Assembly: GCA_964016885.1 (NCBI GenBank)
Contig: OZ024742.1
Location: forward strand, 365,242,001 to 365,306,000
Direction of reading: 5' to 3'
DNA from: Eledone cirrhosa
Lineage: Eukaryota
Length of the DNA: 64,000 bases
Part shown: in pieces, positions 1,240-44,760 of the stretch
Position numbering within the stretch: position 1 is the stretch's first letter
Layout of the letters: each line of letters opens with the position of its first letter
Program-made: the position numbers and the translations under genes
Notes under the pieces: generated by a model
Seen by the model: only the letters and a program-made list of their open reading frames with translations
Database searches by the model: none
Told to the model about the DNA's origin: nothing

Positions 1240-2605
1240 ATAATTTCAGGTTATCAATAATGTAGTGATAATATATCGTTACGTTAGAGATGAACAGCGT
1301 ACGTGTAGGTTTGCTCAACGAGTATAAATTATATTCCGGAGAAAATGTAGAAAAGATGAATATAAAATGAAAGTGCTTTTTTTAAAAAGGAATTTATTAG
1401 GTATTGACATATGTTTCTGTAACAGACGGAATACCTATGTATCGCTGCTTGCGTAATCATTCGATAGCAAATGTATAATCAGTTGTCACTTCTTCAGAGA
1501 TTTTGGATAAATTGGATAAAATCAGAAAAATTGAAGTATTTATATTAGTTGTAATAGAGGAAGAAGAGAGGGGAGAGTATATGACAGATGGTAATTCAAT
1601 TTACAGCTAAACAAGTATATAAAGGGTTTCTAATGAGAATACAATGAGTAAAAGGTTTATTTTATCTAAATAAGAATTTTTGGGAGTGCCTATTTTAATC
1701 TATACTTGAACAGTGGACAGGGCTGGTCATTTGGTGTAGTAGTATTAATTGTAAAGTGTCAATTGAGGAAGGGGGAGATTTCGACTGCTACTGAATAACA
1801 TAATGCTAGTAGCCAGCTGGTATATGCATTAGGGAATTGAATTAAGAAATCAGAAATCTCATTTTATCTATAGCAGTTTATATTAAATGGTAAATAATAG
1901 AAGAGTTGATAGAATTAAGACTAATAGAGAATGTTAATATGTGTTTTGACAATCAAACGGAGATGGAGACAGGCGTTCAATCCTGGTAGTATTTGTAATA
2001 TGAAAATGTAGATTTTAAGCGATGGTTACAGTATAACGATCGCTCTATTCTGTTTAACAGATCTATAGAGCTATAGATAAAATGAGATTTCTGATTTCTT
2101 AATTCAATTCCCTAATGCATATACCAGCTGGCTACTAGCATTATGTTATTCAGTAGCAGTCGAAATCTCCCCCTTCCTCAATTGACACTTTACAATTAAT
2201 ACTACTACACCAAATGACCAGCCCTGTCCACTGTTCAATTGGTCAAGTATAGATTAAAATAGGCACTCCCAAAAATTCTTATTTAGATAAAATAAACCTT
2301 TTTACTCATTGTATTCTCATTAGAAACCCTTTATATACTTGTTTAGGTGTAAATTGAATTACCATCTGTCATATACTCTCCCCTCTCTTCTTCCTCTATT
2401 ACAACTAATATAAATACTTCAATTTTTCTGATTTTATCCAATGTATCCAAAATCTCTGAAGAAGTGACAACTGATTATACATTTGCTATCGAATGATTAC
2501 GCAAGCAGCGATACATAGGTATTCCGTCTGTTACAGAAACATATGTCAATACCTAATAAATTCCTTTTTAAAAAAAGCACTTTCATTTTATATTCATCTT
2601 TTCTA
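1240..2605 (-). mobile_element. 5'-truncated Penelope-like element (family F) with ~530-bp inverted arm
   Basis: About 1347-1875 is inverted relative to 2071-2605. Minus strand 2060-1977 reads LLNRIERSLYCNHRLKSTFSYYKYYQD*, matching the GIY-YIG C-terminus at 31495-31575 (LLNSKIERSMFCRNK). Confidence 0.75.
2441..2555 (+). ncRNA. Hammerhead-like motif (family F); inverted copy at 1398-1502 (-)
   Basis: CTGAAGA 2456-62, stem II GTGACA/TGTTAC, GAAA 2536-39, palindromic ACATATGT, GTC triplet. Proximal stem I pairs poorly. Confidence 0.55.
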
Positions 2606-3599
2606 TATATATATATATATATATATATATATATATATATATATATATATATATACATATGTATTTGGCCGTATCTTTTAACCTTGATATAAATGTGTGT
2701 GTGTGTGTGTGTGTATGTGTGTATGCTTGTGTCTGAGTGTGTGCGTAAGAGACTCAGCCAACTATAACTAACAAGTAGGAAAATGTCAGCCCATCACCAG
2801 AACATATACATATTTAGAAGTAACAAAAATTAAGAATGTTATTTGTGAACAGAATTCTCTGCAAAGTTTCTATCATTAAAAAAAGAAAGATAAACATACA
2901 TTACACTCAAATGCTCATTGATTTAATGCTTGAAAATGTTATCTTGGCTGGTATTTAAAACAGCCACTTGTTCTGTTACGTGAAAGTCACTTGAGTATTT
3001 TATACTTTAATGAATCTCTATAGCAAAGAAAAATTAGATTGGAAATAATAAAGAAAGCAAGAAATATTTTGTAGGTGTGAGCATTGAAATGTGTATTAAT
3101 GCATATTGTAGTAGTTGATTAGAGACGACATCCTGCAGCAGTTTGTAGAACACATCAGGGATGAAGTGAATAGAATTAATAGCAAGAATCTCAGGGGAAC
3201 TCTAATAGATTTGAACTGTTTAAAATGGATGCATTTCTAAATAATGTCGAACTCCTGAATGTCTTGGTGAGGAAGAGACCAAATGACGACTGCTTAATGA
3301 GTTCCTAAATAGAGTGTCAAGGTGTGACATGCAAGCATACACACGGACATACATACATATATATATATATATATACATATATATATGCATACATATATAT
3401 ATACATTTATATATAGATAGATAGAGAGAGGGAGAGAGAACAGTGAGCATATTCACACATACATATGTACATCTGTCTCTCTCTATATATACACACACTT
3501 TTGCAACAGAATATGGGCCAATCTTGGTCTGAATATAATTACATTTATATAAATGCGCACACTAAAACACAGACATTAAATATATATATATATATATAT

Positions 3600-3794
3600 A
3601 TAGTAATAATAATAAAATTGAAGACTAAAATCCAAAGAGGGCTCGATAAGGAAAATATATATCAAATATATAAGAACCGTAGAGCAACGTTTTTTGAAAT
3701 ATCCAGTTCTGCGTTTACAGATTGACTTTGTTAGTTTCAGAAGATCCCGTTAAGGGTGAAAGCAGCGATTCTTTGCTTAAACTTTAATCTGTAA
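3600..3794. mobile_element. Short pLTR insertion (family G): minus-strand tail plus inverted hammerhead-bearing arm
   Basis: 3600-3685 is the reverse complement of 32620-32710. 3738-3792 matches 32551-32605. Another tail copy lies at 12985-13080. Confidence 0.65.
3715..3794 (+). ncRNA. Type I hammerhead ribozyme with variant core CAGAAGA (family G)
   Basis: Stem I AGTTT/AAACT plus distal TTACAGATTGA/TTAATCTGTAA; core CAGAAGA 3738-44; stem II CCC/GGG; GAAA 3758-61; stem III AGCA/TGCT; triplet CTT. Confidence 0.7.
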
Positions 3795-3860
3795 TATATA
3801 TATATATATATATATATATATATATATATATATATATATATATATATATATATATATATA

Positions 3861-4053
3861 GGAACAAGTAAGACCCCGACGGCTGAGCTCAAGCCGTTTC
3901 GACGGCTAATTCTGGACTCCAGAATTAGCCGTCGAAACAGCTTGAGCTCAGCCGTCGGGGTCTTACTTGTTCCTATTACCCACTCTACTACCCTAAGTAT
4001 TGAGTACTTTGGTGCGTTATGGTCCACCTGGTTCCTTACCACATTTCCTTCGT
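3861..4053 (+). mobile_element. Family A pLTR insertion, second copy
   Basis: Near-perfect palindrome 3861-3973 with the same tail as 268-458; flanked by (TA)n. Confidence 0.7.
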
Positions 4054-4648
4054 TATATATATATATATATATAAATATATATATATATATATATATATAC
4101 ATGTATATATACATGTATATATACATATATAAATATATATATATATATATATATATATATATATATATATATACATGTATATATACATATATTTTTTTAA
4201 AAAATTTTTTTTAAAAAGATATTTTCTTATTTTACGTCCTTTATATTATTGTTCTGCATTCTCCTGCATTGAACCACCTAGGTACTATGACATAACCTGT
4301 GTATTTGCTGGCATGGGCGTGCATCTGTGCGCTTATGTTAGTTGATATATTAAATTATCTATATTTATCTCCAAATCACTGATTTGTCGAGCAAACTTGT
4401 CAAAACCACTTCTAAAAAAATTTTTTTTTGGGGTGTTAGTAGGCGTCAGTCATCTTACCATCCCATTCCTTCTAACTAGCCTCTGTGTCACGTGATTGAT
4501 TCTTTAGAATCGGCCATTTGACTTGAAGCAGTGAGAATTTCGGTACATAGAATCCAGTCCTCGCAAGCTGTTCGATCTACCGAATTATTATTATTTTTAT
4601 ATGAGCCGCCAGTGTCCGCGCATTGCCTGGAGACTTAACTGAGAATAG

Positions 4649-4730
4649 ACTCCCTGATGACGCAATGAATTCTCGACAGTTGGATTACGTAACTGTCTTT
4701 ATCCCATTGCAGAAACTAATTAGTTGGAGT
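4649..4730 (+). ncRNA. Type I hammerhead ribozyme
   Basis: ACTCC-CTGATGA-C-GCAATG...CATTGC-A-GAAA-CTAATTAG-TT-GGAGT. Palindromic stem III ACTAATTAGT; inner helix GACAGTT/AACTGTC. Confidence 0.85.
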
Positions 4731-43045: not shown

Positions 43046-43167
43046 TATATATATATATATGTATATATATATATATATATTTGATATATTTATTTATATA
43101 TGTCAATGAATCATGAAATTATATATATATATATATATATATATATATATATATATATATATATATT

Positions 43168-43397
43168 CTAGGGCGGGTAAAATTTCCGAGATCCATGGAC
43201 GAGTTCTCTCCAGCGGTCTCTGTCCATCATTATCGCTGCCATGTCCTGCGTCTCCAACAGACCAGTATCTGTCCTTAGGGCATCAACATACGTTAACCTT
43301 GGTCTTACTCTTCCAGTGTGTCCATGTAGGGGCTCCCACAGGAGCACTGAGTGCAATGTCAACTCTGGGTGGCGGTGAGCATATCCAGCTAACCTCA
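43168..43397 (-). mobile_element. RTE-X-like LINE 3' fragment; inverted twin at 43966-44182 (+)
   Basis: [36 protein letters not shown]. Confidence 0.7.
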
Positions 43398-43449
43398 TAT
43401 ACATATTTATATTTATTTATATGCATAAGGAAAGTATATACTTTCAGAC

Positions 43450-43536
43450 GTTCAACCATCTGGCAGGAAGGTATACGTTGCTGACGATAGCTAATAAGCT
43501 TGAAACTAGTACAGCGTTCCTTTTTCAGTGTTGAAC
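43450..43536 (+). ncRNA. Type I hammerhead ribozyme (family K, diverged copy)
   Basis: ACGTTG-CTGACGA-T-AGCT(AATA)AGCT-T-GAAA-CTAG-TA-CAGCGT. Confidence 0.88.
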
Positions 43537-44183
43537 AAATGAGCAACGATGGTTGTTAGACACTGTACGGCTTAATTCGGGATGTTTGTTTACAAACACA
43601 CCAAGCATTATAATAAATGTTCGGTGAATCCATACGTACATATATATATATATGTGTGCATGTATGTATATATACATACTACTGTACGTCTGTATACATA
43701 TATGTATGTACGTATACATACTTATATTTAAGTAACAGCCGTACCAAGAGTGAGAAATGAAATTTCGTTTCATTTTTTCCGTTTATATATATATATATAT
43801 ATATATATATATATATATATATATATATATATATATATATATATATATATATATATATATATATATATATATATATATATATATTTATATATATGTATAT
43901 ATATATATATATTAATAAATATAAATAAATATTTATATATATATGTATATATATAAATATATATATGAGGTTAGCTGGATATGCTCACCGTCACCCAGAG
44001 TTGACATTGCACTCAGTGCTCCTGTGTGAGCCCCTACATGGACACACTGGAAGAGGATGACCAAGGTTCATGTATGTTGATGCCCTAAGGACAGATACTG
44101 GTCTGTTGGAGACGCAGGACATGGCAGCGATAATGAGGGACAGAGACCGCTGGAAAGAACTCCTCCATGGATCTCGGGAATTT

Positions 44184-44760
44184 TATATTATGTAACTATA
44201 TTTATCCCATTACAGAAACTAATTAGTTGGAGTGAAAATTTTAGTAAGTAAGTTGATTTTTAATTTTTTTAATTTTCTTATTTTACGTCTTTCATATAAT
44301 TGTTCTGCATTCACCTGCATAGAACCACATAGGTACTAAGACATAACTTATATATTTGCTAGCATGAGTGTACATCTGTACACATATGTTGGTAGATGTA
44401 CTAATTTTCTATATTTAACTCCAAATTATTTGTTGAGCAAAACTTGCCAAAATTTACTGCTGTTTCATGGTAGTAGTAGGCTCTTGTCATAATACCACCC
44501 CTCTCCTAACTGATTAACCTCGGTGTCACGTGATTGATTCTTTAGAATCTGCCACTGACCAGAGGCAGTGAAATTTTTTCAGTGCTCCGGAATTTAGTCC
44601 TCGCTAGCTTCATTCAATCTACTGAATTATTATTTTTATATGGGTTCCTAGTGTCCGCGCATTGCCTGGGAACTTAGCTGAGAATAGACTACCTGATGAC
44701 GTAATGAATTCTCTATAGTTATATATATTATGTAACTATATTTATCCCATTACAGAAACT
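44184..44760 (+). mobile_element. Circularly permuted 540-bp relative of the 561-bp retrozyme-like unit
   Basis: 37-bp direct terminal repeat (44184-220 = 44724-760). The hammerhead is split across the ends, with CTGATGA at 44693. Confidence 0.8.

What the first reader, a model, noticed from the sequence alone, without database searches (positions are those of the whole stretch)
2456..44758. Shared non-canonical base of stem II across unrelated hammerheads
Seen: the positions flanking the core, canonically a G10.1-C11.1 pair, are mismatched in five families: C.A (4661/4711, 44700/44754, 7626/7639), U.U (43488/43501, 32210/32291, 3745/3757) and A.A (2463/2535). Family D has an unopposed U. Within family K the mismatch changes from C.A to U.U and stays unpaired. 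Inference: a selected structural variant, possibly rate-attenuating, that standard descriptors would miss.
Basis: partly seen in the sequence, partly recalled or inferred. Interest (0 to 1): 0.75.

Follow-up and report, generated by a model that had tools for sequence, protein, structure and literature searches.

The report
Hydra-clade hammerheads with loose stem base
These are predicted self-cutting RNA motifs from one known group of jumping genes; the mismatch is fixed in thousands of genomic copies and already stands in published tables for that group, and it is likely a tolerated loose spot rather than a specially selected brake.

Summary
All seven base pairs of coordinates are right, and the mismatches are family traits, not copy decay (U·U in 97 and 98, C·A in 98 of the first 100 listed matches of families with 13,500, 20,942 and 4,753 exact matches). 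But the motifs are not unrelated and the trait is not new. Three of the five families flank Hydra-clade Penelope ORFs; the other two share that architecture. In Craig et al. 2021 File S2, 15 of 25 Hydra-clade families have the same 1x1 mismatch (14 U·U); active natural U·U hammerheads are published (Perreault 2011; axolotl HHR_Amex2). Nor does the site stay unpaired: of 24 subfamily states 13 are paired (10.9 expected by shuffling), it flips inside families, and four copies in this window have A-U. It is limited to a small set (G-C, G·U, A-U, U-A, U·U, C·A, A·G, A·A). Family D's lone U is the published min-HHR bulge. Best reading: relaxed constraint in hammerheads with a longer stem III; a selected brake is not excluded. 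Cleavage is untested. The scan noted Hydra-clade hammerheads with other fixed mismatches before, elsewhere in this genome.

The parts
2456..2555 (+). Family A hammerhead-like motif: core 2456-2462, A2463·A2535 mismatch, G2464-C2534 next, GAAA 2536-2539, palindrome 2540-2545, predicted cut after C2547; only one contiguous stem I pair; 2516-2523 is complementary to 2548-2555
   Evidence: 2,081 genome matches to the 3' half; pLTR of a PLE with an open 773-aa ORF
1398..1497 (-). Inverted twin of the family A motif
   Evidence: ORF C-terminus remnant at 1980-2069 on the same strand
3733..3783 (+). Family F hammerhead: CAGAAGA core (A at position 4), U3745·U3757, 3-bp C-G stem II, hairpin stem III 3762-3776, 5-bp stem I, predicted cut after 3778
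   Evidence: ORF start 195 bp downstream in L277
4649..4730 (+). Family B hammerhead: C4661·A4711, G4662-C4710 next, long stem II with internal loop, 8-nt palindromic stem III, predicted cut after 4725
   Evidence: compensatory changes in stem II across subfamilies
5210..5291 (+). Tandem twin of family B hammerhead (561-bp unit)
7613..7655 (+). Family K hammerhead, C·A subfamily (7626/7639), 4-bp stem II, CUAG palindrome, predicted cut after 7649
12756..12826 (+). Family M hammerhead with an A-U pair at the base of stem II (counter-example; further copies 58746+, 9928-, 58619-)
28619..28650 (-). Family D core and stem II, unopposed U before G-C (min-HHR type bulge)
29967..29998 (-). Family D core and stem II, second copy
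30281..30393 (-). Family E hammerhead, inverted twin (U·U)
31085..31566 (+). Remnant of the C-terminal part of a Hydra-clade PLE ORF, ending about 670 bp before the family E hammerhead
   Evidence: tblastn
32197..32309 (+). Family E hammerhead: U32210·U32291, long stem II, CAAUUG palindrome, predicted cut after 32303
43475..43517 (+). Family K hammerhead, U·U subfamily (43488/43501)
44693..44760 (+). Family B core and stem II (C44700·A44754), broken off before stem III

Best explanation
The motifs are type I hammerhead-shaped RNAs in the terminal repeats of Hydra-clade Penelope-like retroelements and their likely non-autonomous tandem derivatives, and the first position of stem II (10.1·11.1) is an inherited, likely relaxed site that drifts among a small set of standard and non-standard pairs. 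Shown: family-level fixation, the link of A, E and F to Hydra-type ORFs, switching between paired and mismatched states inside families, and that all such families carry a stem III of two or more pairs. Inferred: U·U, C·A, A·G and A·A would stack as non-standard pairs on the sheared G12·A9 pair rather than hang open; the longer palindromic stem III (dimer of two repeats, or hairpin) and loop I-loop II contacts would make up for the weaker stem II base; cutting would be slow or need the element's protein, which the element can afford because it is copied from RNA whose 3' hammerhead is still uncut.
For: Family states: K 97 U·U, 2 C·A, 1 C-G of first 100 of 13,500; K non-U subfamily 76 C·A of first 100 of 1,321; B 98 C·A of first 100 of 4,753; F 98 U·U of first 100 of 20,942; A 3' A in 99 of first 100 of 2,081 and 5' A in 24 of 24. 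Switching: TCCAAAC family 66 A·G, 14 C·A, 14 U-A, 6 other of first 100 of 6,084; a tandem family with A-U in 17 and U·U in 17 copies; family E 5' base U 87, G 12, C 1 of first 100 of 260, 3' U in 10 of 10 loci read; K-like relatives with G-C. Census over all loci fetched plus the window: 21 families seen in two or more loci (0 in reversed control); 17 symmetric ones all with stem III of two or more pairs, 4 bulge-type ones all with one; 24 subfamily states, 13 paired against shuffle mean 10.9 (P>=obs 0.24, P<=obs 0.88), but the two letters are not independent (mutual information P 0.002). Clade: ORF with RWK, DKT and CxCX5C motifs as defined for Hydra; homologous ORFs next to A, E, F and TCCAAAC hammerheads. 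Published: 14 U·U, 1 U·C, 7 G-C, 2 G·U, 1 bulge among 25 Hydra families; axolotl U·U family pairs a weaker helix II with a more stable helix III and cleaves; an anole PLE hammerhead cuts only with protein and uncut RNA is the main template. Copy ends do not pile up at the cut site (5' starts within 8 nt: 5 of 381 alignments) and in A, F and partly E many copies end 20-70 nt past it.
Against: No cleavage was measured. K (0 of 86 motifs) and B (0 of 35) had no Hydra ORF end or start within 900 bp in the loci held, so their clade rests on architecture alone. The four largest window families by exact matches (F, K, B, A) are all mismatched, and K and the TCCAAAC family each show two different fixed mismatches, which a brake model also predicts. 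The 24 states are few, related to each other, and depend on my clustering thresholds; paired states are slightly easier to detect. The copy-end test used loci partly chosen for intact hammerheads, which biases it against ends at the cut site.
Confidence: 0.62

Rival explanations
1. Selected brake: the mismatch is favoured because it slows cutting, so that the 3' hammerhead survives in the RNA that is reverse-transcribed, or cutting waits for dimer formation or the element's protein.
For: The most abundant families examined are mismatched; F and the TCCAAAC family also carry U4 changes; copies run past the cut site; U·U dominates published Hydra families; mispairs here are known to lower activity, U·U least (Perreault 2011 citing earlier mutagenesis); PLE template is mainly uncut RNA.
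Against: 13 of 24 subfamily states are paired, no fewer than shuffled; G-C, A-U, U-A and G·U families are also multi-locus, including family M in this window; a double change from C·A lands on a mismatch in 5 of 9 cases by chance.
Confidence: 0.22
2. Register shift: in families A and B the true G10.1-C11.1 pair is kept one step in, and the 'mismatch' is the published extra base after A9 plus a second inserted base before G12, both bulged or loosely stacked.
For: G-C follows the mismatch in B (24 of 24) and A and in two small A·A families; the 5' extra base with G10.1-C11.1 is the metazoan min-HHR consensus; a Chara PLE row in File S2 has C..A around G-C.
Against: K, E and F have A-U, U-A and C-G next; inside K-like and TCCAAAC families G-C occupies the very position of the mismatch at unchanged length.
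Confidence: 0.08
3. The motifs have largely lost catalysis and are kept as a folded landmark for the element's protein, so positions that matter only for chemistry decay in the master elements.
For: Family A is young with open ORFs yet lacks a normal stem I; F has A4; no footprint of cutting in copy ends.
Against: G5, A6, G8, A9, GAAA and UH are kept across 21 families with covarying stems; published U·U hammerheads cut.
Confidence: 0.07
4. Copy-specific decay or chance folding.
For: One cited copy is truncated (44693).
Against: 97-99 of the first 100 genome matches share the state in K, B, F and A; controls give 0-1 hits.
Confidence: 0.01

Closest known systems
Hammerheads of Hydra-clade Penelope-like elements (Craig et al. 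2021, PMC8557442; section 11, passages and File S2 read)
   Same: Type I, in the pLTR of short RWK/DKT/CxCX5C elements inserted in (TA)n; symmetric base of stem II, mismatched in 15 of 25 families; palindromic or hairpin stem III. Family K has the same layout as the Hydra magnipapillata rows (U·U, 4-bp stem II, tetraloop).
   Different: The table has only U·U and U·C mismatches for Hydra families; here C·A, A·A and A·G are fixed in families of thousands of copies, several stems II are 50-100 nt long, and U4 variants occur. The passages I searched do not discuss the mismatch.
Axolotl retrozyme HHR_Amex2 (Cervera and de la Peña 2020, PMC7229834, sections 14-15 read)
   Same: About 60,000 tandem-repeat type I hammerheads with U·U at the base of helix II and a more stable helix III; 22% cleavage in 1 h as monomer, much more as dimer. 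K (about 420 bp unit) and B (about 560 bp unit) are similar tandem repeats.
   Different: Vertebrate retrozyme with canonical loop contacts; circular RNA shown there, not testable here.
Natural U10.1-U11.1 hammerhead (Perreault et al. 2011, PMC3088659, section 8 and passages read)
   Same: Same position and mismatch in a natural core variant; U-U noted as the best tolerated mispair.
   Different: Reported as a rare surprise, not as a clade trait; no purine-containing mismatch mentioned in the section read.
Metazoan PLE min-HHR (Cervera and de la Peña 2014, PMC4209133; parts 1-2 of text and of supplement read)
   Same: Family D and three other families fit it: extra base after A9, then mostly G10.1-C11.1, minimal stem III.
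   Different: The mismatch families have a base on both sides and a longer stem III; in Fig. S3 this shows in the Hydra and D. willistoni rows (U·U) and one 'AGAAA' row, 3 of 56, read from PDF text with columns lost.

Membership tests
Type I hammerhead ribozyme | CUGANGA, GAAA and UH boxes in type I order | tested here: met
   Met for B, K, E, M, D, A; F has CAGAAGA in 31 of 32 contexts read by eye, a U4A variant
Type I hammerhead ribozyme | Three helices around the core | tested here: inconclusive
   Met for B, K, E, F, M; D has a 2-bp stem I; A has only one contiguous stem I pair
Type I hammerhead ribozyme | Paired 10.1-11.1, mostly G-C | tested here: not met
   Mismatched in the five families; natural exceptions are published
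Type I hammerhead ribozyme | Site-specific self-cleavage | not testable with these tools
   Bench assay needed; copy ends give no footprint
Hydra-clade Penelope-like elements | Single ORF with RWK, DKT and CxCX5C linker, C-terminal GIY-YIG | tested here: met
   Family A ORF shows RWK, DKT, CxCX5C and a YVG-type endonuclease box by eye; homologous ORFs beside E, F and TCCAAAC hammerheads; a homologue is an Apostichopus japonicus protein
Hydra-clade Penelope-like elements | Hammerhead in both pLTRs flanking the ORF, element about 3 kb, inverted 5' copies, (TA)n sites | tested here: met
   A and E motifs at both ends of the ORF about 3.1-3.2 kb apart; inverted twins in the window; TA flanks
Hydra-clade Penelope-like elements | RT phylogeny places the ORF in the Hydra clade | not tested
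   No tree built
Hydra-clade Penelope-like elements | Families K and B linked to such an ORF | tested here: inconclusive
   0 of 86 K and 0 of 35 B motifs had an ORF end or start within 900 bp in the loci held
Non-LTR retrozymes | Short tandem units, one type I hammerhead each, no ORF | tested here: met
   K about 420 bp (coordinates), B 561 bp; no ORF hits in L274, L275
Non-LTR retrozymes | Expressed circular RNA | not testable with these tools
   No RNA holder listed
Metazoan min-HHR | Extra base after A9 only, minimal stem III | tested here: met
   Family D only; not met by the five mismatch families

The most novel reading that the evidence does not exclude
Hydra-clade elements tune their hammerhead with a selected set of non-standard pairs (U·U, C·A, A·G, A·A) at the catalytic metal-binding step 10.1·11.1, so that cutting is switched on only by dimer formation or the element's protein; family A has gone further and replaced most of stem I by an 8-bp pseudoknot between loop II and the strand after the cut site.
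Probability: 0.2. Interest if true: 0.6.

Novelty: new member of a known kind. Interest (0 to 1): 0.28.

Why it matters
As it stands: it shows that descriptors demanding a 10.1-11.1 pair miss tens of thousands of hammerheads in this genome, and it supplies a natural series (G-C, G·U, A-U, U-A, U·U, C·A, A·G, A·A) within closely related families for asking how much this step matters. C·A, A·A and A·G as fixed family states were not found in the papers read apart from one C..A row and one possible A..A row in supplementary tables. If the brake reading held, it would bear on the open question of what PLE hammerheads are for.

Tried and rejected
Rfam: 0 matches at gathering score; no hammerhead family among the 150 of 181 matches listed at E<=10. 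DNA search of the own genome gave 0 candidates because repeats are skipped. Pfam gave no informative hit for the family A ORF. Sequencing runs: no RNA holder listed; contigs of two runs from two other coded organisms covered a family K hammerhead, with no other letter listed at the U·U positions (single contigs, weak). Copy-end test for a cutting footprint: 5' starts within 8 nt of the cut site in K 2 of 120, F 1 of 105, A 1 of 56, B 1 of 46, E 0 of 34, TCCAAAC 0 of 20; biased sample. My first strict descriptor missed F, A and D; the relaxed ones still miss most A copies. My first reading, that all cases are the min-HHR bulge plus a second insertion, was dropped because G-C sits at the same position in sister subfamilies. 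Type III folding of family A was considered and rejected (no matching stem III upstream). Lünse et al. 2017 on PLE hammerhead variants and Nelson and Uhlenbeck 2008 were not held and may describe this position; nothing is taken from them. Roberts et al. 2023 passages gave no value for this pair. Supplements of the bioRxiv retrozyme preprint were not seen (only part 1 of 5 of its text).
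Full report
Observation. For six of the seven pairs an automatic scan places a helix of 4-6 pairs one step inside a 1x1 mismatch between CUGANGA and GAAA; the seventh (3745/3757) has a 3-bp C-G helix and the box CAGAAGA. Rfam sees none of them at gathering score. B, K, E and a further family M complete a type I hammerhead with stem I and a palindromic stem III; F does so with a hairpin stem III. The 44693 copy is broken before stem III. Family A has only one stem I pair next to the core.

Family trait, not decay. The window lies in a 3.0-Gb genome. Patterns with free letters at the two positions gave (first 100 listed places counted by hand, whole counts from the tool, reversed controls 0): K 13,500 matches, 97 U·U, 2 C·A, 1 C-G; K with non-U 5' base 1,321 matches, 76 C·A, 8 C·U, 4 C·C, 4 G·U, 3 C-G, 3 G·A, 2 A-U; B 4,753, 98 C·A, 1 U-A, 1 C·C, with compensatory changes in stem II; F 20,942, 98 U·U; A 2,081, 3' A in 99, and 5' A in 24 of 24 shortened copies; E 260, 5' U 87, G 12, C 1, with 3' U in 10 of 10 loci read; D 4,327, no 3' partner in any of 100. 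The listed places are the first along the largest contigs, not a random draw.

Not unrelated. Family A hammerheads flank an open ORF (773 aa from the first Met) on both sides, 3.1 kb apart. It carries RWK, DKT and CxCX5C, the marks given for the Hydra clade of Penelope-like elements. Homologous ORFs lie beside E, F and a family outside the window that I call TCCAAAC, and ORF remnants precede the window's E and A copies. K and B occur as tandem units of about 420 and 560 bp with no ORF nearby in the loci held (0 of 86 and 0 of 35); they look like non-autonomous, retrozyme-like derivatives, and their clade is inferred from architecture only. No tree was built.

Does the site stay unpaired? No. 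In 158 evenly spaced 10-kb stretches (1.58 Mb) a strict descriptor found 104 motifs against 1 in the reversed control. Over all loci fetched (these stretches plus search loci, so enriched for the window's families) a relaxed descriptor gave 21 families in two or more loci, 0 in the control. Seventeen have a symmetric stem II base and all of these have two or more pairs in stem III; four have the 5' bulge only and all have one pair (Fisher P 1.7e-4, but families are related). Among the symmetric families 24 subfamily states passed my thresholds: U·U 5, G-C 4, G·U 4, C·A 3, A-U 3, A·G 2, U-A 2, A·A 1. Thirteen are paired; shuffling gives 10.9. Family M, four copies in this window, has A-U.

Literature. 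Cervera and de la Peña 2014 (text parts 1-2 and supplement parts 1-2 read) give the min-HHR consensus with an extra base after A9 and G10.1-C11.1: that is family D. Craig et al. 2021 File S2 lists 26 Hydra rows, 25 families after one duplicate strand row (two of them share one sequence): by my count 14 U·U, 1 U·C, 7 G-C, 2 G·U, 1 bulge; the extra letters are written into the core columns and a word search of the main text found no remark on them. One Chara row has C..A around G-C. Perreault et al. 2011 report a natural U10.1-U11.1 start of stem II, note U-U as the best tolerated mispair, and state that their final alignments rejected such mispairs. Cervera and de la Peña 2020 describe about 60,000 axolotl copies with U·U and a more stable helix III that cut 22% in one hour as monomer and much better as dimer. 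Frangieh-type work on an anole PLE (PMC11167929, passages) found cutting only with protein and uncut RNA as main template. Searches found no paper that treats C·A, A·A or A·G at this position as family traits; two relevant papers were not held. That G10.1 and the A9 phosphate bind a metal ion and that 10.1-11.1 stacks on G12·A9 is recalled, not from a call.

Mechanism. Most likely the element's RNA folds these motifs, two repeats pair through the palindromic stem III (or it closes as a hairpin), and the 10.1·11.1 bases stack as a standard or non-standard pair. The longer stem III, and in B a 7-bp contact between the stem I side and the stem II internal loop, would offset the weaker base, so several states are tolerated. 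Slow cutting costs little because copies extend past the 3' cut site, so the template was uncut there. The same fact keeps the brake reading alive, and the biggest window families are all mismatched, but there is no statistical deficit of pairs. All catalytic statements are inference.

Verdict. Real, inherited and mostly known: new members of the Hydra-clade hammerheads, with a wider set of fixed mismatches than published. Interest 0.28. Earlier notes of this scan on other pieces of the genome pointed me to File S2 and describe related Hydra-clade mismatches at other positions; I checked the table and the ORF marks myself.

Noticed in passing
window 2456-2555 + and 1398-1497 -; L271, L276: Family A, a young PLE with open ORFs, has a hammerhead core without a normal stem I; an 8-nt stretch in loop II (2516-2523) is complementary to the 8 nt after the cut site (2548-2555). 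Both were unchanged in 41 of 45 copies, with no compensatory change. Possible pseudoknot in place of stem I.
   Followed up: partly
window 3738-3744; second truncated copy near 32551: Family F (20,942 exact matches) has A at the conserved U4 position as family state; the TCCAAAC family mostly has C there.
   Followed up: partly
window 4640-4646 with 4669-4675: Family B can form a 7-bp pairing between the strand before stem I and the internal loop of stem II, a likely tertiary pseudoknot; the motif is kept in a diverged subfamily.
   Followed up: partly
window 12764+, 58746+, 9928-, 58619-: Family M hammerheads with A-U at the base and a C·U mismatch at the fourth step of stem II, as in earlier notes of the scan.
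   Followed up: partly
L053, L081, L235, L041, L189: Families with the U3-A8 core covariation and G-C at the stem II base.
   Followed up: no
window 45709-56396: A 25-bp satellite of about 431 copies.
   Followed up: no
window 9823-12869, 30225-32365, 1345-2608: Long nested inverted repeats typical of inverted 5'-truncated PLE insertions.
   Followed up: no
L278: Head-to-head pair of near full-length Hydra-type elements, one with an open 832-aa frame.
   Followed up: no
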